A stretch of 64,000 nucleotides of DNA from an uncultured bacterium (lineage in GTDB: Bacteria > Bacillota > CAZWXO01), in assembly GCA_964637885.1 (NCBI GenBank), contig CAZWXO010000003.1, positions 5 to 64,004 on the forward strand, in the 5' to 3' direction. The notes beneath the pieces are model-generated. The model worked only from the letters and a program-made list of their open reading frames with translations, was not told the DNA's origin and made no database searches. The translations under genes were made by a program, and so were the position numbers. Below are positions 54,454 to 63,365 of the stretch, one piece after another. Numbering within the stretch: position 1 is the stretch's first letter; every line of letters starts with the position of its first letter.

Positions 54454-55239
54454 ATGAATGCAGAATCTGCTTTAAATTTGTTTGCTTATTTGCCATTTTT
54501 CTTACTTATTTTTGGGCGTTTGATGGGCCTTTTGTATGCCGCCCCTTTCTTTGGAAGCAGAAATATTCCTAATATGGCTCGCATCGGGTTGGCTTTTTTG
54601 GCAGCTTTCATTTTTATCCCGGTATTGATGCCATTCCGTGCTGAGCCGCCTGATATTTTCACGTGGGTCTTTTTGTTTTTGTTAGAGATTTTAGTTGGTC
54701 TGGCGATGGGATTTGTCAGCAGTCTGCTATTTTACGCAATTCAGGTAGCGGGCCAGTTTATTGATATGCAGCTAGGCTTTGGTTTTGCCAATGTTGTCGA
54801 TCCACAGTCAGGGATACAAGTGCCGGTTTTGGGTAACTATCTGCAAATCATCGCCATGCTGATTTTTTTGCTGATCAATGGCCATCACTGGCTGATTGAA
54901 GCGGTTTTTTATAGTTACCAGGCCGTGCCTTTGGGAGGAGCAACCGTTAATGGTTCGATGCCGGAAGTTATCAGTTATCTGTTTATAAATTTTTTTATTA
55001 TGGCTATTCGTATTAGCATTCCAGTAATCGGAGCGGTGATGCTGGCTGATGTCTCCTTGGGAATAATATCGCGGACAGTTCCTCAAATGAATGTTTTTAT
55101 GGTTGGGATGCCACTAAAAATAATCGTCGGTTTTTTTGTGGTGGCCCTCTCAATTCCCTTGTTTGGGCAAATCATTATCATTGGCTTTGAAGGAGTGATA
55201 GAGGATGTGTTCAGGATTTTGGGGGCACTGTCCCGATAG
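54454..55239 (+). CDS. fliR: Flagellar export apparatus protein FliR.
   Basis: The 261-aa polytopic protein has FliR-like conservation. Confidence 0.9.
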   Translation: MNAESALNLFAYLPFFLLIFGRLMGLLYAAPFFGSRNIPNMARIGLAFLAAFIFIPVLMPFRAEPPDIFTWVFLFLLEILVGLAMGFVSSLLFYAIQVAGQFIDMQLGFGFANVVDPQSGIQVPVLGNYLQIIAMLIFLLINGHHWLIEAVFYSYQAVPLGGATVNGSMPEVISYLFINFFIMAIRISIPVIGAVMLADVSLGIISRTVPQMNVFMVGMPLKIIVGFFVVALSIPLFGQIIIIGFEGVIEDVFRILGALSR

Positions 55240-55240
55240 C

Positions 55241-56365
55241 ATGGCCGCCAATGAGATTAATATAACTAGAAAATTTGTTTTTTCCTTTGATTTACAGCTT
55301 TTCGGTGGTGGCGGCGGTGAGAAAACTGAGCTTCCGACTCCAAAGCGCAAACAGGAGGCTCGCAAAAAGGGCCAAGTCCCCCACAGCAAGGAGATTAACA
55401 GCGCCGTAGTATTATTGGCAGCCTTTTTTACGTTGCGGTTTTATGGTCCTACGATGTTTGCCAATTTAAAAGACCTTTTTTATCTTTTTTATGCTGAGGC
55501 GAGTCATCCGGATGTGGCTGGGTCGTTGTGGGTGATAGTTCGAGAAGTCGTCTATTCTTTTTTAATTATTATATTGCCATTGTTAGTAGTAGTCGCCATC
55601 ACTGGTGTTTTAGTCAATGTCTTGCAGGTGGGCCCAATATTTTCAACTGAGTCACTGAGCCCCAAATTGAGTAAACTGAATCCCTTGGAGGGTTTTAAAA
55701 GGATATTTTCCAAACGCACATTAGTTGAATTGGTCAAGTCCTTGTTGAAAATTTCGATGATAATTTATATGCTTTATACTAGCATCAGGGATGAGTACCG
55801 TCTTTTTCCGGATTTGATGTTGATGGATGTTCCAACTGCAGTTTCGACTTTGGCGATGTTTATTTTCACATTGGCGGTCAAGGTAGCTGTCATGCTTTTA
55901 ATCTTGGCTGTTTTTGATCTTTTCTTCCAACGTTGGCAACACACCCAGGATTTAAAAATGTCCAAAAAGGAAATCAAGGATGAGTACAAACAAATGGAAG
56001 GCGATCCGCAGATTAAATCAAAAATAAGAGAAAAGCAGCGGCAGCTTGCTATGGGACGGATGATGCAAAATGTGCCAGGTGCAGACGTTGTTATTACCAA
56101 TCCGACCCATCTGGCGATAGCATTGTTGTTTCAGAATAAAAAGATGTCGGCTCCAATGGTTGTGGCAAAGGGTCAGGATCGAACTGCTCTCAGGATAAAA
56201 GAAATTGCCAAGGAAAACGATGTTCCCATAGTGGAAAACAAACCTTTGGCTCAAGCACTCTATAAAACCACAGAACTTGGGCAAATGATTCCGACTGAGT
56301 TATATAACGCCGTGGCTGAGGTTTTGGCTTTTGTTTACCGCTTGAAAAAGAAAAATGTAGGATGA
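55241..56365 (+). CDS. flhB: Flagellar export apparatus switch protein FlhB.
   Basis: The N-terminal EKTE.PTPKR motif and the NPTH autocleavage site (VVITNPTHLAIAL) are present. The start is ATG 55241. The longest ORF begins at 55205. Confidence 0.9.
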   Translation: MAANEINITRKFVFSFDLQLFGGGGGEKTELPTPKRKQEARKKGQVPHSKEINSAVVLLAAFFTLRFYGPTMFANLKDLFYLFYAEASHPDVAGSLWVIVREVVYSFLIIILPLLVVVAITGVLVNVLQVGPIFSTESLSPKLSKLNPLEGFKRIFSKRTLVELVKSLLKISMIIYMLYTSIRDEYRLFPDLMLMDVPTAVSTLAMFIFTLAVKVAVMLLILAVFDLFFQRWQHTQDLKMSKKEIKDEYKQMEGDPQIKSKIREKQRQLAMGRMMQNVPGADVVITNPTHLAIALLFQNKKMSAPMVVAKGQDRTALRIKEIAKENDVPIVENKPLAQALYKTTELGQMIPTELYNAVAEVLAFVYRLKKKNVG

Positions 56366-56382
56366 GAAGAGGATAATCATTA

Positions 56383-58464
56383 ATGGCGCCAGCTAAGAGA
56401 ACCGGAATAATCGATCGCATTATGGATAATAGAGAAGTAATATTGATTATGGCTGTTATTGCGATAGTGTTCATGATGGTTATTCCATTGCCTACTTTCG
56501 TATTGGATGTTTTGCTAGCACTTAATCTGAGTGTTGCTTTAATTATATTAGTTTTGGCAATCTATACAGAGGATACTCTAAGCTTTTCTACTTTTCCGTC
56601 TCTGTTGTTGGTGGTGACTTTGTTCCGACTTGCTCTAAACATTTCGGGGACAAGGCTCATTTTGCTCCATGGTTTTGCAGGGCATGTCATTGAAGCTTTT
56701 GGTAATTTTGTCATCGGCGGGAACGCTGTTGTCGGATTCATTGTCTTTTTTATCCTAGTGATAGTTCAATTCATCGTTATCACCAAAGGGGCCGAGCGCG
56801 TCGCGGAGGTTGCTGCTAGATTTACCTTGGACGCGATGCCTGGGAAGCAGATGAGCATTGATGCTGATCTCAATGCCGGTATCATCACAGATTTAGAAGC
56901 CAAAGAGCGCCGGCAAAAGATTCAGCGGGAAGCTGATTTTTACGGTGCGATGGATGGTGCTAGTAAGTTTGTCAAGGGTGATGCGATTGCCAGCATCGTA
57001 ATTGTATTTATCAATGTCACCGGCGGTTTTATTGTAGGGATGTTGCAATTGGGAATGTCTGCCGGAGAAGCATTGAGTCGCTTTACCCTCCTTACTGTTG
57101 GGGAGGGACTTGTGAATCAGATGCCTGCTCTGTTAATCAGTACGGCGACGGGCTTGATTGTGACGCGGGCGGCATCAGATTCTAATCTTGGTAAAGATTT
57201 GATTCGCCAGATTTTTTCCCGACCTAAGCCTCTTATCATCGCTGCGATTGTTTTGACAGCGATGGCTTTTTTGCCGGGAATGCCTACCTTCTCTTTTCTT
57301 GGTTTAGCAGGATTTTTTGCCGGAGTTGTGGTGATTATGCGCAGGATGCCGCAAATTGCCTTGGAGGACGAGGGGGAAGACGAAGAACCGGATTACGAAA
57401 AGGAGGCCGAAGAACTGAAAAAACCTGAAAACGTCTTAGGGCTGTTGCAGGTAGAACCGATTGAATTTGAGTTTGGTTACGGCTTGTTGCCTTTTGCTGA
57501 TCCGGCTCAAGGAGGTCCTTTAATGGATCGCATCGTCATGATTCGTCGGCAGTGCGCTCTGGAACTTGGAGTTGTGGTCCCGACTGTGCGGATTCGCGAC
57601 AATATGCAACTAAAACCTAATATATATGTATTAAAAATCAAGGGAATTGAGGTCGCGCAATACGAACTGCTTTTAGGTCATTATCTCGCACTCGATACAG
57701 GTGGAACCAGCGGTCCCCTGAATGGGTTGGAGACGGTAGAGCCGGCGTTTAACCTTAAAGCGTTTTGGATTACCGAGGAAGAGAGGGAAATGGCAGAAAC
57801 GACGGGCTATACTGTTGTCGACATTCCTACTGTCGTTAGCACTCACATCACTGAAATTATCAAAAAATATGCCCACGAATTAATCGGTCGTCAAGAAGTA
57901 AAAAAATTGTTGGATAATGTTCAAAAAGAGTATCCGGCGGTCGTCGATGATTTGGTGCCCAATGTTTTGAGTTTAGGAGAGCTGCAGAAAGTAATGCAAA
58001 ATCTTTTAAAGGAGCGCATCTCGATTAGAGATCTCGTTTCGATTTTAGAAACTCTTGCTGACTATGGTAATATGACTAGGGATACCGATGTTTTAACAGA
58101 ATATGTCCGGCAGACTTTGGCCCGACAAATAACACAGCAATTTAGCCAGGGCCAGCGTAAAATATCGGTGATTACCATCGATGCATCGGTTGAATCAGCA
58201 ATTAATGATGCGATTCGTCGCACTGACCAAGGCGCGTATTTGTCGATAGATCCACAATTAGCAGCCAAAATTGTGCAAAACCTCTCTTCATTGGCAGAAA
58301 AAACTTTGTCGCAGGGGATATCGCCGATTGTTATATGTGCACCAGTTGTCCGGGTTTGGTTCCGGAGATTAATTGAAAGGTCATTACCACATGTGACGGT
58401 TTTATCATATAATGAGATAGATCAGGATGTAGAAGTACAGTCGATTGGGACGGTGAGTATGTAA
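56383..58464 (+). CDS. flhA: Flagellar export apparatus protein FlhA.
   Basis: The 693-aa protein has an N-terminal TM domain, the FHIPEP motif region and a large cytoplasmic domain. Confidence 0.9.
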   Translation: MAPAKRTGIIDRIMDNREVILIMAVIAIVFMMVIPLPTFVLDVLLALNLSVALIILVLAIYTEDTLSFSTFPSLLLVVTLFRLALNISGTRLILLHGFAGHVIEAFGNFVIGGNAVVGFIVFFILVIVQFIVITKGAERVAEVAARFTLDAMPGKQMSIDADLNAGIITDLEAKERRQKIQREADFYGAMDGASKFVKGDAIASIVIVFINVTGGFIVGMLQLGMSAGEALSRFTLLTVGEGLVNQMPALLISTATGLIVTRAASDSNLGKDLIRQIFSRPKPLIIAAIVLTAMAFLPGMPTFSFLGLAGFFAGVVVIMRRMPQIALEDEGEDEEPDYEKEAEELKKPENVLGLLQVEPIEFEFGYGLLPFADPAQGGPLMDRIVMIRRQCALELGVVVPTVRIRDNMQLKPNIYVLKIKGIEVAQYELLLGHYLALDTGGTSGPLNGLETVEPAFNLKAFWITEEEREMAETTGYTVVDIPTVVSTHITEIIKKYAHELIGRQEVKKLLDNVQKEYPAVVDDLVPNVLSLGELQKVMQNLLKERISIRDLVSILETLADYGNMTRDTDVLTEYVRQTLARQITQQFSQGQRKISVITIDASVESAINDAIRRTDQGAYLSIDPQLAAKIVQNLSSLAEKTLSQGISPIVICAPVVRVWFRRLIERSLPHVTVLSYNEIDQDVEVQSIGTVSM

Positions 58465-59588
58465 TGCTGACAAAGAAATACAGGGCGACATCGTCGCATG
58501 AAGCGATTAAAATGGCACGCAAAGAGCTGGGGGCAGAGGCTATCATCATGCATGAGAAAAAAGTTCGCCCCAAGGGATTTTTGGGTGTTTTTCGCAAACC
58601 AGTTGTCGAGGTTCTTGTTGGAATCGAAGAAAAAAGTGAGCGGCGTGGTAGGCCTTCTTTAAATGAATTGAAGGGACAAGACGAGTCCCTCGGCAAAATT
58701 CTCAGCGAGTTAAATCAGATGAAGGAATTTATGCTGCAACTTTCACAGAACAATGACAAAGTTGCCGGAAGTGTTTCAAAAGAATTGGAAATGGCATATG
58801 TTGAGCTGAGTCGTATCCAAGAGGGCCTGATTGGGCAAGATGTCGGCAATGATATTGTCAAGAAAGTCATCAAATCATTGCTGGAAAGCTTGAGTGAAGC
58901 TGAATTGCACGATTCAGAGTGTATTGCAATGGCGGCAGAGCGCGAGCTGGCAAATATGTTAGGCAATGCGAGTCCGATATCCCGCAAAGATCATTCAGGG
59001 CCAAAGGTTGTCGCTTTGGTTGGGCCCACAGGAGTCGGAAAGACAACGACGATTGCAAAACTGGCCGCCAATTTTGCCCTGGTAGAGAAGCTAAATGTGA
59101 TGCTAGTCACAGCTGATACATATCGCATCGCTGCTCCAGAGCAACTCAGGACCTATGCTGGAATCATGAATGTGCCTCTTGAGGTAGTATTGTCTCCTCA
59201 GGAACTGGCCCATGTTGTGGAAGAAAATAAGCATATGGACATTATTTTCCTCGATACTGCTGGGAGAAGCCAGCGCAACATGATGCAAGTCAACGAGATT
59301 AAAAATTTTCTTGATGCAGTTCCAGACGTTGAAACATACTTATGCATCAGTATGAACACGAAGCCCAGCGACATCGAAGAGATTCTGGCAAATTTCAGGC
59401 AGACCAAATACTCAAAGTATATTTTGACAAAACTAGATGAGACTAATTCCTTTGGAACAGCCCTAAATATGGTGATTAGAACCGATAAGCCTCTATCTTA
59501 TATCACTAACGGGCAAGACGTACCGGACTTCATTGAAGTTGCGGACGCACGAAAGTTGGCAAAAATGATGCTCAGGGGTACAGAATAA
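58464..59588 (+). CDS. flhF: Flagellar biosynthesis SRP-type GTPase FlhF.
   Basis: The G1 motif [16 protein letters not shown] and the DTAGR G3 motif are present. Confidence 0.9.
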   Translation: MLTKKYRATSSHEAIKMARKELGAEAIIMHEKKVRPKGFLGVFRKPVVEVLVGIEEKSERRGRPSLNELKGQDESLGKILSELNQMKEFMLQLSQNNDKVAGSVSKELEMAYVELSRIQEGLIGQDVGNDIVKKVIKSLLESLSEAELHDSECIAMAAERELANMLGNASPISRKDHSGPKVVALVGPTGVGKTTTIAKLAANFALVEKLNVMLVTADTYRIAAPEQLRTYAGIMNVPLEVVLSPQELAHVVEENKHMDIIFLDTAGRSQRNMMQVNEIKNFLDAVPDVETYLCISMNTKPSDIEEILANFRQTKYSKYILTKLDETNSFGTALNMVIRTDKPLSYITNGQDVPDFIEVADARKLAKMMLRGTE

Positions 59589-60457
59589 TGATTGATCAGG
59601 CAGATAAATTGAGGCGTTTATCCGGGAGTAGCGTTTTTCGGAGTGCTGCATCAGTTGATCGCAAGGCGAGAGTTGTTGCCATAACCAGTGGCAAGGGCGG
59701 GGTCGGCAAGACAAATATTGCTGTTAATATAACGATGGCCTTGGCAGCAAAAGGGAAACGGGCAATTATTATCGATGCCGATATTGGTCTGGCTAACGTC
59801 GATGTAATTATGGGTGTTTCGCCTAAATTCGATTTGAGTACTGTTTTAAGAGGAGAAAAAAGCATTCATGATATTATAACCAGAGGCCCTGGTGGAGTCG
59901 GTTTCATCGCGGGTGGAGTGGTGAACAAGGATTTATTAGACATTAGAGACTGGCAAATCGATAAGCTGGCGGCTGGTTTTGCTGAGCTTGACAATATGTA
60001 CGATGTTATAATAATTGACACAGGAGCAGGTGTTTCTCAACATGTCATGTCGTTTGTTTTGGCAGCTCCGGAAGTAATAGTCGTTACGACACAAGAGCCG
60101 ACTTCCATTGCCGATGCCTATCGAATGTTAAAAGCAATTTCGCTTAAAGAGTCGGGTAGCATCAACCGTTTGGTTGTTAACCGTGCGTCGTCGGCCCAGG
60201 ATGCGAAAAATACTTTCAACAGGCTAAATCGCGTTTCAAATCAGTACTTAGGGATGCCTCTAAACTATTTGGGTTATATTCGGGATGACACTGCTGTCTC
60301 AACATCTGTGATGCGGCAGGCACCCTTCATTATAGAATTCCCCGAATCAATGGCTGCGGTTGACATTCAGCGTTTGGCGGACAACTTATCGATGGGCGCA
60401 CCTGATGGCGGTGGGTTTAGGGGTTTTTTCAGTAAAATGACCAAAATGTTTAATTAA
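59588..60457 (+). CDS. flhG: MinD-type ATPase FlhG (YlxH/FleN).
   Basis: The N-terminal activator motif DQADKLRRL (DQAxxLR) and the deviant Walker A SGKGGVGKT are present. Confidence 0.85.
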   Translation: MIDQADKLRRLSGSSVFRSAASVDRKARVVAITSGKGGVGKTNIAVNITMALAAKGKRAIIIDADIGLANVDVIMGVSPKFDLSTVLRGEKSIHDIITRGPGGVGFIAGGVVNKDLLDIRDWQIDKLAAGFAELDNMYDVIIIDTGAGVSQHVMSFVLAAPEVIVVTTQEPTSIADAYRMLKAISLKESGSINRLVVNRASSAQDAKNTFNRLNRVSNQYLGMPLNYLGYIRDDTAVSTSVMRQAPFIIEFPESMAAVDIQRLADNLSMGAPDGGGFRGFFSKMTKMFN

Positions 60458-60478
60458 TTTTCAACATTAGAAGGGAGG

Positions 60479-61606
60479 ATGTACTTGAATAGCGAATTAG
60501 ATATTAGCGACAACTCCCGCAACTTGATAATCGATGTGTTAAATGGTTTCCATCATGGGCGCTATCAGTGCGTCGTCTTATCAACTGATGCAAATTCTGT
60601 CCGCGTAGCGATGCCCAGTAAGAATGGACTGCCTTTACCGCTGGCAGTTGGACAGCAAGTCAGGGTGACTTCACCCCAGGATGGTGGTTTTTCTTTCACT
60701 AGTTCGGTTGTCGCCCGAAGTATGGCTGATGTGCCCTATATTGAGATTTCCAAGCCTAATAATGGACAGGGAGTGCAAAAATTCGCCCGGATAATTGCCG
60801 TCACCAGCGGCAAAGGCGGAGTTGGTAAAACCAATTTTACCGTTGCGCTGGCCATGGCACTGGCAGATATGGGGAAAAGTGTTTTGATTATCGATGCCGA
60901 CATGGGGTTGGCTAATGTGGACGTGTTGCTAGGGGTGCGACCGAAATACGACCTGACCGATGTTTTTTCAGGGGAGAAACAGTTCCATGAAATTTTGAGT
61001 GACGGCCCTGGCGGGATTAAATTTATTGCTGGAGGAAGTGGAATTGAGGACCTGGCAAATTTAGATGAGAAGCAGTTATTAAAAATTATTGAGAGCTTTG
61101 ACGATTTAGAAAAATTAGCTGATATCATTTTGATCGATACAGGTGCGGGCATTGCAAAAAATGTGACAAGTTTTGTCCTCGCTTCTGATTCAGCACTTTT
61201 GATTACTACTCCAGAACGGACGTCCGTCGCTGATGCGTATGCGATGGTGAAGGTAGTGCTCCTCAGCAATAAGAAAGCAAAGGTCTCGTTAGTGGTTAAT
61301 CGCGCTGAAACTACCGGCGAGGCCGAGGGTGCATATAGGCGCCTTGCAGGTGTTTCTAAAAATTATCTAGATTATGAGCTTGGGTTTGCCGGGCTTGTTC
61401 ACGACGATAGTAATGTTACTCACTCGGTAAAAAAACAGATGTCTTTTTATCGCTGTTATCCTGGCAGTGTGGCTAGCAGGTGTGTTCGGAAAATTGCTAT
61501 TAAAATATGCGAGGACACGAATCCGACGCAAGACCAGAATAACACTGGAGTGAAGGGGTTCTTGGCAAAGCTGAGAAATCATTTTGGCGTTACTTCATCG
61601 AGGTAA
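60479..61606 (+). CDS. Second MinD/FlhG-family P-loop ATPase. It has an N-terminal extension of about 100 aa of unknown, possibly beta-rich, fold.
   Basis: The deviant Walker A TSGKGGVGKTNF, IIDADMGLANVD and ILIDTGAG are present. It lacks the DQAxxLR motif. Residues 1-100 are VVLSTDANSVRVAMPSKNGLPLPLAVGQQVRVTSP.... Confidence 0.7.
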   Translation: MYLNSELDISDNSRNLIIDVLNGFHHGRYQCVVLSTDANSVRVAMPSKNGLPLPLAVGQQVRVTSPQDGGFSFTSSVVARSMADVPYIEISKPNNGQGVQKFARIIAVTSGKGGVGKTNFTVALAMALADMGKSVLIIDADMGLANVDVLLGVRPKYDLTDVFSGEKQFHEILSDGPGGIKFIAGGSGIEDLANLDEKQLLKIIESFDDLEKLADIILIDTGAGIAKNVTSFVLASDSALLITTPERTSVADAYAMVKVVLLSNKKAKVSLVVNRAETTGEAEGAYRRLAGVSKNYLDYELGFAGLVHDDSNVTHSVKKQMSFYRCYPGSVASRCVRKIAIKICEDTNPTQDQNNTGVKGFLAKLRNHFGVTSSR

Positions 61607-61609
61607 GAA

Positions 61610-62290
61610 ATGAATTTAAAAATAAATCAAAGAGTTGAAATAATTGTCCATGATGAACCATACAAGGGTTCTTACCTTAGTCGCGTGGAGAATTATGATA
61701 AAAAGCAGATTGTCTTAGCAATGCCGATGAGCCATGGTGGCTTAGTGCCCGTTCGTTCGGGTACGCTGGTATCAGTTGTTTTCTTTGATGAATTGGCCGT
61801 ATACGAATTTCAGGCTCCTGTCGTGCGGTTGCAGCAGGATAATATTGCTCTTCTCAAGTTAAATCTGCCTGAAAACATTAAAAGGATTCAACGTCGAGCG
61901 TATGTGCGGCTTGAAGTCAGTTTGCCGGTCAACATTTTTATTGAAATGGAAAATGAAACGCAGATGTCGTTAAGTGGGGAAACTGCGGACATCAGCGGTG
62001 GTGGAATTAGGATTGTTTTGAACCGAATGGATTTTGCTAAGATGGCGGAAAAACTTCAATTAGAAAATATGGCTGGAATGAAATTAAAGATGGCGATACA
62101 TTTGCAGCCGTATTCACACGACAAAACGGAGATGGTGGATTTTATTGGAGAAATTATTCGTCACGGGGAGAGTGGAACTTCATTTTGGCTTGCGGTAAAT
62201 TTTGCGGTAGTTAGTGAAAAAAACCGTGATAAAATTGTTAGTTTTATCTTTCGAAAACAACTTGAACTTCGTAATAAAGGCTTGATGTGA
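61610..62290 (+). CDS. PilZ-domain protein, a YcgR/MotI-like c-di-GMP-dependent flagellar brake.
   Basis: The PilZ signature motifs RxxxR (QRRAYVRLEV) and D/NxSxGG (DISGGGIRIV) are present, with an N-terminal PilZN-like beta domain. Confidence 0.75.
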   Translation: MNLKINQRVEIIVHDEPYKGSYLSRVENYDKKQIVLAMPMSHGGLVPVRSGTLVSVVFFDELAVYEFQAPVVRLQQDNIALLKLNLPENIKRIQRRAYVRLEVSLPVNIFIEMENETQMSLSGETADISGGGIRIVLNRMDFAKMAEKLQLENMAGMKLKMAIHLQPYSHDKTEMVDFIGEIIRHGESGTSFWLAVNFAVVSEKNRDKIVSFIFRKQLELRNKGLM

Positions 62291-62300
62291 GGTTGATGCG

Positions 62301-63365
62301 ATGATGGCAGAGAAAATTAAAGTACTTGTAGTGGATGATTCTGCTTTTATGCGCCGTGTGATCAGCGATATGGTGGCAACGGATAGTGGTATGGAAGTGG
62401 TCGGGATTGCTAGGGATGGCTTAGATGCAATTGATAAAGCCAAAAAACTTCATCCGGATGTAATTACACTCGATATCGAGATGCCACGCATGAATGGGCT
62501 TGAAGCCTTGGAGATTTTAACCGGCCAAATGAGGATACCAACGATAATGTTCAGCAGCCATACCAAGGAGGGCGCTGAAATAACATTGACTGCATTAGAA
62601 AAGGGTGCTTTTGATTTTCTGCCGAAGCCAGATAACGCATATTTTGCGCCGCTTGACCAAGTTCAGCGTGATCTAATTGACCGAATTCGCGGGATTAAAA
62701 AAGTAAACCTTGGCAATCTTGTCGCTCATAAGCCGATGGAGAGGAAGATTGTCCATGAAGATTTCAAGAGAGATGTTTTCACTGCTCCTAAAAACTTTAA
62801 AAAATTAGTCGCGATAGGAACCTCCACGGGAGGGCCACGAGCCTTGCAGGAAGTTGTGCCCTACATAAGTGGCAATATTGACGCATCGTTTTTAATTGTG
62901 CAGCACATGCCGCCTAATTTTACTAAATCTCTAGCGGAGCGTTTGAACGGCTTATCATCTCTTCAGGTAAAAGAAGCAGAGGATGGAGACGATATTATCC
63001 GAGGGAGAGTCTTGATTGCGCCAGGAAATTATCATATGCTAGCCGTAAAGAAATCTGATGGAGTGTACCAAGTTCGACTGGAGCAATCGCCCACGGTGGA
63101 AGGCCACCGTCCGTCGGCAACGGTAATGATGGATTCTGTCGCCAGGACTTTTGGTCCGGCAGCCATAGGAGTTATTCTGACCGGAATGGGTGGAGACGGC
63201 TCCGATGGCATGGTCAGCATCAAGAAAGCCGGCGGGCAAACTATCGCCGAGGATGAGTCGACGTGCGTAGTATTTGGTATGCCAGAAGTAGCAATTAAAA
63301 AGCAGGCTGTAGATTATATTGTTCCATTGCCCAAGGTTTCAGAAAAAATCAGCGGACTCGTATAG
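62301..63365 (+). CDS. cheB: Chemotaxis response regulator protein-glutamate methylesterase CheB.
   Basis: The receiver domain (VLVVDDSAFMRR) is followed by the methylesterase domain (GTSTGGPRAL, the catalytic Ser context). Confidence 0.9.
   Translation: MMAEKIKVLVVDDSAFMRRVISDMVATDSGMEVVGIARDGLDAIDKAKKLHPDVITLDIEMPRMNGLEALEILTGQMRIPTIMFSSHTKEGAEITLTALEKGAFDFLPKPDNAYFAPLDQVQRDLIDRIRGIKKVNLGNLVAHKPMERKIVHEDFKRDVFTAPKNFKKLVAIGTSTGGPRALQEVVPYISGNIDASFLIVQHMPPNFTKSLAERLNGLSSLQVKEAEDGDDIIRGRVLIAPGNYHMLAVKKSDGVYQVRLEQSPTVEGHRPSATVMMDSVARTFGPAAIGVILTGMGGDGSDGMVSIKKAGGQTIAEDESTCVVFGMPEVAIKKQAVDYIVPLPKVSEKISGLV

What the first reader, a model, noticed from the sequence alone, without database searches (positions are those of the whole stretch)
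59588..62290. Expanded flagellar placement/brake module: flhF - flhG - flhG-like ATPase with novel N-domain - PilZ protein, inserted before cheB
In Bacillus the order is flhF-flhG(ylxH)-cheB. Here two extra genes sit between flhG and cheB. The first is a second MinD/FlhG-family ATPase with an intact deviant Walker A. It lacks the DQAxxLR FlhF-activating helix and instead carries an N-terminal extension of about 100 aa. The second is a canonical PilZ protein with RxxxR and DxSxGG motifs. This juxtaposition suggests a c-di-GMP-responsive layer acting on flagellar number, placement or rotation, with the PilZ reader possibly partnering the paralogous ATPase. I am not aware of a characterised system with this exact architecture.
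Basis: partly seen in the sequence, partly recalled or inferred. Interest (0 to 1): 0.6.

Follow-up and report, generated by a model that had tools for sequence, protein, structure and literature searches.

The report
FlhG paralog with YcgR-like N-domain
In the flagellar operon of an uncultured Firmicute, the usual flagellar-number ATPase FlhG and the usual c-di-GMP "brake" protein are joined by a second FlhG whose extra N-terminal domain is the barrel found in brake proteins; this fusion recurs in other bacteria, I found no description of it, and its function is untested.

Summary
The genes run flhF, flhG, a second FlhG-type ATPase (373-375 aa), a PilZ protein (226 aa), cheB. They are tightly packed on the + strand.

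Two parts of the interpretation need correcting.
- A PilZ gene between flhG and cheB is not an insertion. It is the usual order in Clostridia and Negativicutes (19 of 80 sampled flhG loci). Only Paenibacillus-type Bacilli go straight from flhG to cheB. The protein resembles MotI/YcgR brakes.
- The "novel" N-domain is a PilZNR (YcgR_2, PF12945) barrel. It matches the N-terminal half of the neighbouring PilZ protein and lacks c-di-GMP motifs.

What remains is a PilZNR-FlhG fusion. At least 39 clusters at 50% identity carry it. It occurs in three settings: in tandem after a canonical flhG (here and four other contigs), as the only flhG with the DQAxxLR helix kept, or as an orphan gene. It is under purifying selection. 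I found no description of it.

The likeliest role is a membrane-cycling FlhG-type ATPase docked at the flagellar motor by its PilZNR barrel. That is inferred, not shown. It is a new variant of a known kind, of moderate interest.

The parts
58464..59588 (+). flhF, SRP-type GTPase (374 aa)
   Evidence: TIGR03499 FlhF at 202 bits against a cut-off of 174; PF00448 SRP54 at E 3e-41.
59588..60457 (+). Canonical flhG (289 aa): N-terminal DQADKLR helix, deviant Walker A, C-terminal amphipathic tail GFRGFFSKMTKMF
   Evidence: Its 90% cluster is named FlhG by JGI. dN/dS against L092 is 0.021.
60479..61606 (+). PilZNR-FlhG paralog (375 aa from ATG 60479; probably 373 aa from TTG 60485)
   Evidence: Pfam PF12945 plus ParA/CbiA/AAA_31. 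44% identical to flhG. AlphaFold model pLDDT 85.7. Best solved-structure matches are FlhG 4RZ2 and FleN 5J1J. dN/dS 0.057.
60524..60757 (+). PilZNR (YcgR_2) beta-barrel domain of the paralog, residues 16-93, with no RxxxR or [D/N]xSxxG
   Evidence: PF12945 at E 7.5e-10. hhalign to the N-half of the operon PilZ family: probability 99.5%, E 2.8e-23. Domain-only model pLDDT 85; Foldseek top hits are MotI 5VX6, VCA0042 and YcgR-N 5Y6H. Motif scan negative. dN/dS 0.18.
60803..60832 (+). Deviant Walker A, TSGKGGVGKT (residues 109-118)
   Evidence: S110 to G114, G116 and K117 are invariant in both fusion alignments (32 and 43 sequences). T109, V115 and T118 vary slightly.
60785..61513 (+). FlhG-type ATPase core (residues 103-345), with invariant D139, D141, D220, D252 and K258
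   Evidence: The family profile scores FleN 290 bits, FlhG 258 bits and MinD at most 161 bits.
61547..61594 (+). C-terminal amphipathic helix (GVKGFLAKLRNHF), a putative membrane-targeting sequence
   Evidence: Predicted helix at residues 357-374. F361 is invariant in the 32-sequence alignment and nearly invariant in the 43-sequence one.
61610..62290 (+). MotI/YcgR-like c-di-GMP receptor (226 aa): PilZNR plus PilZ
   Evidence: PF12945 at E 6.5e-19 and PF07238 at E 4.3e-12. Best solved relative is B. subtilis MotI/YpfA 5VX6. JGI names the 84%-identical orthologue 'c-di-GMP-binding flagellar brake protein YcgR'.
61883..61897 (+). RxxxR motif (RIQRR, residues 92-96) in the interdomain linker
61988..62005 (+). 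[D/N]xSxxG motif (DISGGG, residues 127-132)
62301..63365 (+). cheB methylesterase (354 aa), the start of the che block
   Evidence: PF01339 plus PF00072; NF001965 at 419 bits.

Best explanation
SHOWN. This is the distal part of a clostridial-type fla/che operon from a deep-branching uncultured Bacillota organism. Three of its genes are standard for that operon type: flhF, a canonical flhG, and a MotI/YcgR-like PilZNR-PilZ c-di-GMP receptor.

The one unusual gene is a second FlhG-type ATPase. Its N-terminal FlhF-activating helix is replaced by a PilZNR barrel. That barrel is homologous to the N-terminal half of the flagellar brake proteins. The ATPase machinery and the C-terminal amphipathic helix are intact. 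The gene belongs to a recurrent family of PilZNR-FlhG fusions.

INFERRED MECHANISM. The paralog behaves like a MinD/FlhG switch. With ATP bound it dimerises and binds the membrane through its C-terminal helix. It cannot stimulate FlhF. Instead its PilZNR barrel docks it on a flagellar motor component, with FliG or the C-ring or MotA as candidates by analogy with YcgR-N and MotI. This would split FlhG's jobs between two genes: the canonical copy regulates FlhF, and the paralog acts at the basal body or motor, in C-ring assembly, spacing or stator access.

The adjacent PilZ protein most likely works as an ordinary c-di-GMP-dependent clutch or brake. Any c-di-GMP input to the paralog would be indirect, for example through competition or pairing with the brake at the same docking site.
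For: Domain identity:
- Pfam PF12945 above threshold.
- hhalign between the fusion N-domains and the operon PilZ family gives 99.5% probability, with the alignment running into the linker that carries RxxxR in PilZ proteins.
- The closest solved folds to the N-domain model are MotI, VCA0042 and YcgR-N.

FlhG type rather than MinD type:
- The profile scores FleN 290 bits, FlhG 258 bits and MinD at most 161 bits.
- Foldseek's top hit is FlhG 4RZ2 with TMt 0.92.
- TIGR01968 MinD falls below its cut-off.

Catalytic and dimer residues and the C-terminal Phe are conserved across 32 and 43 fusions.

Recurrence:
- 39 of 43 full-length representatives at 50% identity carry PF12945 and none carries PF07238.
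- The tandem flhF-flhG-fusion-PilZ order is also found in L092, L088 and L094, and flhG-fusion in L002.
- In L089 and L090 the only flhG has DQAxxLR, then PilZNR, then the ATPase. This shows the barrel is compatible with a working FlhG.

Selection: dN/dS is 0.057 overall, 0.18 for the N-domain and 0.03 for the ATPase.

PilZ after flhG is the norm, seen in 19 loci.

Literature:
- YcgR-N is implicated in FliG contact (PMC12713396; PMC8203827).
- DQAxxLR activates FlhF (bioRxiv 10.1101/2022.03.19.484964).
- The only cultured carrier, Natranaerofaba carboxydovora, is flagellated (PMC8359318).
Against: - No interaction was tested. No multimer prediction was available.
- The motor-docking role of PilZN-type domains comes from E. 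coli YcgR, which has PF07317 rather than PF12945, and is still debated.
- For MotI, the papers I could read report binding to MotA but do not say which domain is responsible.
- Five of the 12 distinct fusion genes whose context I examined are orphans in non-flagellar neighbourhoods. The family may therefore not be tied to flagella.
- The ATPase-domain tree is unresolved: fusion monophyly got 0 of 100 bootstraps and the orphan clade 33 of 100. Single versus multiple origin, and the subfunctionalisation scenario, remain open.
Confidence: 0.5

Rival explanations
1. The PilZ protein and the paralogous ATPase form a dedicated pair. The c-di-GMP-bound PilZ protein binds or regulates the paralog, possibly through their matching PilZNR barrels, and so makes flagellar number or placement respond to c-di-GMP.
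For: - The two genes are 3 nt apart, and a Shine-Dalgarno sequence lies inside the end of the upstream gene.
- The pair is kept in L092, L088 and L094, and next to the single-copy fusions in L089 and L090.
- Many fusions keep a remnant of the PilZ linker (P..ISRxGR), which points to descent from a PilZNR-PilZ protein.
Against: - PilZ follows flhG in 19 loci that have no paralog, so adjacency is inherited from the operon layout and is not specific.
- L002 has the tandem without PilZ.
- Orphan fusions have no PilZ neighbour.
- The fusion lacks RxxxR and [D/N]xSxxG, and the window protein has even lost the linker remnant.
Confidence: 0.2
2. The PilZNR-FlhG family is a general MinD/ParA-type positioning ATPase for a non-flagellar cargo such as chemoreceptor arrays, division or sporulation structures. 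Its presence in this flagellar operon is secondary.
For: - Five of the 12 distinct fusion genes whose context I examined sit in unrelated contexts, near dnaE, RNR, lexA and others.
- NCBI labels them only 'AAA family ATPase'.
Against: - The ATPase core is FlhG/FleN-like rather than MinD- or ParA-like.
- Seven of the 12 contexts are inside fla/che operons.
- In the single-copy form the fusion is the operon's only FlhG and keeps DQAxxLR.
- In characterised proteins the PilZNR domain is known from flagellar brake proteins.
- The cultured carrier is flagellated, and L007 has che genes 7 kb away.
Confidence: 0.15
3. The paralog modulates FlhG itself. It forms mixed ATP-sandwich dimers with canonical FlhG that carry only one FlhF-activating helix. 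This would tune FlhF GTPase stimulation. The PilZNR barrel would act as an intramolecular or regulatory lid rather than a docking module.
For: - The two are 44% identical, with all dimer and catalytic residues shared.
- They sit in tandem in one operon, which suggests similar expression.
- The paralog lacks DQAxxLR.
Against: - Orphan and single-copy forms exist without a second FlhG next to them.
- The N-domain and ATPase core are joined by a low-confidence linker (residues 95-99, pLDDT below 50), which gives no sign of a fixed lid.
Confidence: 0.1
4. The paralog is a recent, redundant or decaying duplicate of flhG with a passenger domain and no function of its own.
For: None beyond the fact that it is a paralog.
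Against: - dN/dS is 0.057 overall and 0.18 for the N-domain.
- The same architecture is kept between lineages only about 42% identical.
- The active-site residues are invariant.
Confidence: 0.03

Closest known systems
FlhG (YlxH) of Bacillus subtilis and Geobacillus thermodenitrificans (PDB 4RZ2/4RZ3)
   Same: MinD-like fold (TMt 0.92), deviant Walker A, C-terminal amphipathic helix, and a position directly after flhF/flhG in the fla/che operon.
   Different: The paralog lacks the DQAxxLR helix that activates FlhF and has a 90-aa PilZNR barrel instead. It coexists with a canonical FlhG.
FleN of Pseudomonas aeruginosa (PDB 5J1J, 8PB9)
   Same: It is the best sequence match of the family profile (290 bits). 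It is the one FlhG-type ATPase already known to work inside a c-di-GMP-responsive complex, FleQ-FleN (entry titles).
   Different: FleN is linked to c-di-GMP through the transcription factor FleQ, not through a PilZ-type domain. It has no N-terminal barrel. No FleQ is evident here.
MotI (DgrA/YpfA) of B. subtilis (PDB 5VX6)
   Same: It is the best solved relative of the 226-aa PilZ protein and the best fold match of the paralog's N-domain. It has the same PilZNR-PilZ architecture and the same motifs.
   Different: As I recall, motI in B. subtilis is not in the fla/che operon; I did not check this. Here, and in most Clostridia sampled, the homologue sits between flhG and cheB. The paralog has only the N-half, fused to an ATPase.
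[quoted passage not shown]
   Same: It is a two-barrel brake whose N-domain is implicated in rotor (FliG) contact (PMC12713396). The isolated YcgR-N structure matches the paralog's N-domain fold (TMq 0.64).
   Different: Its N-domain belongs to a different Pfam family (PilZN, PF07317). The NCBIfam YcgR equivalog is not met by the window PilZ protein (31 bits against a cut-off of 400).
BcsQ, the MinD-like ATPase of enterobacterial cellulose secretion
   Same: A MinD/ParA-family ATPase working within a c-di-GMP-controlled machine. Weak Pfam similarity (PF06564).
   Different: It is a separate subfamily, unrelated to flagella, with no PilZ-type domain fused to it.

Membership tests
FlhG/FleN subfamily of MinD-like ATPases (for the 375-aa paralog) | Deviant Walker A with a signature lysine (xKGGxGK[ST]) | tested here: met
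   TSGKGGVGKT at residues 109-118. S110 to G114, G116 and K117 are invariant in both fusion alignments of 32 and 43 sequences.
FlhG/FleN subfamily of MinD-like ATPases (for the 375-aa paralog) | Closer to FlhG/FleN than to MinD or ParA in sequence and fold | tested here: met
   Profile against PDB sequences: FleN 290 bits, FlhG 258 bits, MinD at most 161 bits. Foldseek top 10 are all FlhG or FleN.
FlhG/FleN subfamily of MinD-like ATPases (for the 375-aa paralog) | N-terminal DQAxxLR helix that stimulates the FlhF GTPase | tested here: not met
   The N-terminus reads MYLNSELDISDNSRN and the motif occurs nowhere in the protein. It is present in the neighbouring flhG and in nearly all canonical FlhG hits. 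It is kept ahead of the barrel in about 9 single-copy fusions.
FlhG/FleN subfamily of MinD-like ATPases (for the 375-aa paralog) | C-terminal amphipathic membrane-targeting helix | tested here: met
   GVKGFLAKLRNHF; predicted helix at 357-374; F361 conserved. Membrane binding itself was not tested.
FlhG/FleN subfamily of MinD-like ATPases (for the 375-aa paralog) | Encoded with flhF in a flagellar gene cluster | tested here: met
   Order flhA-flhF-flhG-paralog. The same order is found in L092, L088 and L094. Five other family members are orphans.
FlhG/FleN subfamily of MinD-like ATPases (for the 375-aa paralog) | Controls flagellar number or placement; binds FliM/FliY or FlhF | not testable with these tools
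   This needs genetics or biochemistry.
MinD, septum site-determining protein | Reaches the NCBIfam TIGR01968 equivalog cut-off | tested here: not met
   126 bits against a cut-off of 212.9.
PilZNR / YcgR_2 domain (PF12945), for residues 16-93 of the paralog | Matches the Pfam model above its gathering score | tested here: met
   39.2 bits against 23, E 7.5e-10. 39 of 43 family representatives also match.
PilZNR / YcgR_2 domain (PF12945), for residues 16-93 of the paralog | PilZ-like beta-barrel without the C-terminal helix, resembling the N-domains of MotI and VCA0042 | tested here: met
   The domain model (pLDDT 85) has six strands and no helix. Top Foldseek hits are 5VX6, 2RDE and 5Y6H.
PilZNR / YcgR_2 domain (PF12945), for residues 16-93 of the paralog | Followed by a canonical PilZ domain, as in all characterised members | tested here: not met
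   It is followed by an FlhG ATPase. None of the 43 representatives hits PF07238.
Canonical c-di-GMP-binding PilZ receptor (as applied to the paralog) | RxxxR and [D/N]xSxxG motifs | tested here: not met
   Neither motif is in the protein. Other fusions keep only an RxxR remnant in the linker.
MotI/YcgR-like flagellar brake (for the 226-aa protein) | PilZNR or PilZN domain followed by a PilZ domain | tested here: met
   PF12945 at E 6.5e-19 and PF07238 at E 4.3e-12.
MotI/YcgR-like flagellar brake (for the 226-aa protein) | RxxxR in the linker and [D/N]xSxxG in the barrel | tested here: met
   RIQRR at 92-96 and DISGGG at 127-132.
MotI/YcgR-like flagellar brake (for the 226-aa protein) | Orthology to enterobacterial YcgR (NCBIfam NF047947) | tested here: not met
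   31 bits against a cut-off of 400. The closest solved relative is MotI, E 2.7e-6.
MotI/YcgR-like flagellar brake (for the 226-aa protein) | Binds c-di-GMP and inhibits the motor through MotA or FliG | not testable with these tools
   This needs DRaCALA or ITC and motility assays.

The most novel reading that the evidence does not exclude
PilZNR-FlhG proteins would be a distinct, previously unrecognised class of flagellar MinD-type ATPases. They would dock on the rotor or stator through a brake-protein barrel. In tandem operons like this one, FlhG's functions would be split between an FlhF-regulating copy and a motor-docking copy. The motor-docking copy would share or compete for its docking site with the adjacent c-di-GMP-bound MotI-like protein. 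c-di-GMP would then gate flagellar assembly or spacing as well as rotation.
Probability: 0.2. Interest if true: 0.7.

Novelty: new variant of a known kind. Interest (0 to 1): 0.45.

Why it matters
FlhG sets the number and position of flagella. YcgR/MotI-type proteins stop flagella when c-di-GMP rises. The two systems have been studied separately in Firmicutes.

A natural fusion of the brake proteins' N-terminal barrel to an FlhG ATPase recurs in dozens of lineages. In some of them it is the only FlhG. This argues that both modules act at the same place on the flagellar basal body.

If so, it gives a concrete handle on two open points: what the PilZN/PilZNR barrel binds, and how FlhG engages the assembling motor in peritrichous or laterally flagellated Firmicutes. 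It also offers a test organism, Natranaerofaba carboxydovora.

If the barrel proves to be only a passive appendage, the finding is just an unannotated domain architecture.

Tried and rejected
1. Genome-collection scan with the fusion alignment. The back-translated patterns were the Walker A and switch motifs, so it returned only generic flhG loci and no fusions. It was still useful as a sample of flhG neighbourhoods.
2. Metagenome scan with the N-domain alignment.
3. NJ tree of ATPase cores with 100 bootstraps. The first attempt timed out. The second gave an unresolved backbone: fusion monophyly 0 of 100, orphan clade 33 of 100. I draw no conclusion about single or multiple origin. Domain identities are equally flat: the window fusion averages 46.5% to other fusions and 48.5% to canonical FlhGs.
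4. I looked for a functional RxxxR in the fusion linkers. Only an RxxR remnant is present, and it is absent from the window protein.
5. I looked for GGDEF or HD-GYP genes in the window and found none.
6. The homologue search with the PilZ protein returned only 5 hits because of the word index.
7. The MotI (PMC5754805) and FlhG (PMC4364217) primary papers are not held. Statements about them rest on citing papers and on my own knowledge.
8. Taxon names for the source contig: none are on record.

Full report
**What is in the sequence**

The region lies at the end of a long co-directional flagellar operon: fliP, fliQ, fliR, flhB and flhA, then the genes of interest.
- flhF, 58464-59588
- flhG, 59588-60457
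- a second MinD-like ATPase, 60479-61606
- a PilZ protein, 61610-62290
- cheB, 62301-63365

Family scans confirm each assignment. The canonical flhG has the N-terminal DQADKLR helix, the deviant Walker A and a C-terminal amphipathic tail.

The second ATPase is 44% identical to flhG over the ATPase core. It keeps the Walker A (TSGKGGVGKT) and lacks DQAxxLR. It has an N-terminal extension of about 100 residues.

The PilZ protein carries RIQRR (92-96) and DISGGG (127-132).

The gaps between genes are 21, 3 and 10 nt. The Shine-Dalgarno sequence GGGAGG ends directly before ATG 60479. TTG 60485 is therefore the likelier start, giving 373 aa, the length of the gene model recorded for P0001 in the protein collection. 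The factual part of the finding is confirmed.

**Source organism**

The window's FlhA is identical to a protein on a 103.6-kb NCBI/JGI contig. The next best FlhA is only 61% identical, from Thermosediminibacterales, Sporomusa, Carboxydocellales and Thermincola. No taxon name is on record. This is an uncultured, deep-branching member of the Bacillota.

**The PilZ gene is ordinary**

I ran the window proteins against the ORFs of 80 flhG loci drawn from the species-representative genome collection.
- The order flhA-flhF-flhG-PilZ, usually followed by cheB, appears in 19 loci. They include Oscillospiraceae, Thermohalobacter, Ruminiclostridium, Brassicibacter, Caldicoprobacter, Selenomonadaceae, Lachnospiraceae, Alkaliphilus, Mitsuokella, Desulfotomaculum and Schwartzia.
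- The seven Paenibacillus-type loci go straight from flhG to cheB.
- None of the 80 loci has a second ATPase.

The protein's best solved relative is B. subtilis MotI/YpfA (5VX6). JGI names its 84%-identical orthologue "c-di-GMP-binding flagellar brake protein YcgR". It does not reach the NCBIfam YcgR equivalog cut-off (31 bits against 400). I file it as MotI-like, a new member of a known kind.

**The "novel" N-domain is PilZNR**

- Pfam assigns residues 16-93 of the second ATPase to PF12945 (PilZNR/YcgR_2), with 39 bits against a cut-off of 23.
- A profile of 32 fusion N-domains aligns to the N-terminal half of the operon PilZ proteins with 99.5% probability and E 2.8e-23. The alignment runs into the linker where PilZ proteins carry RxxxR.
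- An AlphaFold model of the domain alone (pLDDT 85) is a six-stranded barrel. Its best PDB matches are MotI, V. cholerae VCA0042 and the isolated YcgR-N domain.
- The domain has neither RxxxR nor [D/N]xSxxG.
- Many relatives keep a P..ISRxGR remnant of the PilZ linker. The window protein has lost it through a short deletion.

The paralog is therefore unlikely to bind c-di-GMP itself.

**The ATPase half is FlhG-type and looks active**

- The full-length model (pLDDT 85.7) has a disordered linker at residues 95-99, a MinD-like core and a C-terminal helix at 357-374.
- Its best structural matches are G. thermodenitrificans FlhG (4RZ2, TMt 0.92) and FleN. MinD and Soj rank lower.
- The family profile scores FleN 290 bits, FlhG 258 bits and MinD at most 161 bits.
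- The Walker A lysines, D139, D141, D220, D252 and K258 are invariant. The C-terminal Phe is conserved.

**A recurrent family in three settings**

A profile search of 1.84 billion cluster representatives returned about 45 full-length fusions among the best 150 hits. Of the 43 scanned, 39 hit PF12945 and none hit the canonical PilZ domain.

I examined the gene context of 12 distinct fusion genes.
- **Tandem after a canonical flhG.** The window, its relative L092, L088 and L094 all show flhF-flhG-fusion-PilZ; in the first three the next gene is cheB, while in L094 the next gene is cut off and unidentified. Except between the window and L092 (84%), the fusions are only about 42% identical. L002 is a variant: fliY-flhG-fusion, followed by a 178-aa ORF with no Pfam hit.
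- **The only flhG in the operon.** In L089 and L090/L091 the protein reads DQADKLR helix, then PilZNR, then ATPase, and is again followed by PilZ. About nine cluster representatives have this layout.
- **Orphans in unrelated neighbourhoods.** These are L001 (Natranaerofaba carboxydovora), L003, L005, L007 and L095.

Against L092 the fusion gene has dN/dS of 0.057, with 0.18 for the N-domain and 0.03 for the ATPase. dS is saturated, so these values are approximate, but the constraint is clear.

An NJ tree of the ATPase cores does not resolve whether the fusions share one origin. The N-domains match each other far better than they match PilZ-protein N-domains (E 5e-14 to 2e-7 against 2e-5 to 6e-4). 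This favours common descent of the barrel.

**How it probably works**

The components are shown; the mechanism is inferred.
- An intact MinD/FlhG engine with a membrane-targeting helix predicts ATP-dependent dimerisation and membrane cycling.
- Loss of DQAxxLR predicts no stimulation of FlhF. That motif is the FlhF activator in Bacillus, Campylobacter and Vibrio (bioRxiv 10.1101/2022.03.19.484964).
- In its place is a barrel whose relatives sit in proteins that act on the motor. YcgR-N has been implicated in contacting FliG (PMC12713396; PMC8203827), and MotI binds MotA (PMC8203827).

The most economical reading is that the barrel tethers an FlhG-type switch to the basal body or motor. From my own knowledge of Schuhmacher et al. 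2015, which I could not read here, FlhG is reported to bind FliM/FliY during C-ring assembly. That fits a motor-side role.

The single-copy form shows that barrel and FlhG function can coexist in one protein. The tandem form then looks like a division of labour between two copies.

The adjacent PilZ protein most likely acts as an ordinary c-di-GMP clutch or brake. A direct partnership with the paralog is possible, but adjacency does not specifically support it.

**Rival explanations**

I considered four rivals. The evidence for and against each is given in the Rival explanations section.
- A non-flagellar positioning role, suggested by the orphan copies.
- Heterodimer titration of FlhG.
- A decaying duplicate, which the selection data exclude.

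**Novelty**

Full-text searches found no mention of a PilZNR-MinD/FlhG fusion. I searched for PilZNR, YcgR_2, FlhG with PilZ, and FlhG with YcgR. I also checked the two large PilZ-architecture surveys. Public annotations read only "AAA family ATPase" or "FlhG".

The PilZ gene and its position are already known. The fusion is an undescribed variant of a known kind. [quoted passage not shown] It is an obvious test organism.

**Verdict**

Interest is moderate at 0.45. A specialist in flagellar placement would find the fusion noteworthy and testable. No function has been shown, and half of the originally claimed novelty was ordinary: the inserted PilZ gene and the unknown domain.

Noticed in passing
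window 60473-60487: The ATG at 60479 follows the Shine-Dalgarno sequence GGGAGG with no spacer. TTG at 60485, with a 6-nt spacer, is the likelier start of the paralog. It gives 373 aa, matching the length of P0001 in the protein collection.
   Followed up: partly
proteins P0165, P0193, P0210, P0236, P0241, P0254, P0262, P0170: Other FlhG-like ATPases carry N-terminal extensions of 100-230 aa with no Pfam match. One (P0170) has an HU-type DNA-binding domain in front of the ATPase. N-terminal elaboration of FlhG may be more varied than the PilZNR case.
   Followed up: partly
L001 (Natranaerofaba carboxydovora CP054394.1, 2190492-2207601): The only cultured organism found with a PilZNR-FlhG (P0076, an orphan gene) is described as motile, with a few flagella on the concave side of a bean-shaped cell (PMC8359318). 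That placement is unusual and worth relating to this protein.
   Followed up: partly
L088:4866-5552: The PilZ protein next to the fusion in this lineage has EISGGG instead of the [D/N]xSxxG motif, while RIQRR is kept. Whether it binds c-di-GMP is uncertain.
   Followed up: no
L002:130-3954: Variant tandem. flhG (P0101) lacks DQAxxLR and follows a FliY-like gene directly, with no flhF. After the fusion comes a 178-aa ORF with no Pfam hit, then rpsB. There is no PilZ gene.
   Followed up: partly
L001 and L095/L096: Two orphan fusions from different lineages both lie a few genes upstream of dnaE (PHP-DNA_pol3_alpha). This may be conserved synteny or may be chance.
   Followed up: no
P0005 and L007: NCBI labels one fusion as coming from a Chloroflexota MAG. 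A close relative's contig (L007) carries a small acid-soluble spore protein gene and che genes, which points to Bacillota. The label may be a binning error.
   Followed up: no
window 55205-56365: The flhB ORF as listed begins with about 35 residues (MCSGFWGHCPDS...) that overlap the end of fliR. They are probably not translated, and the true start is likely further downstream.
   Followed up: no
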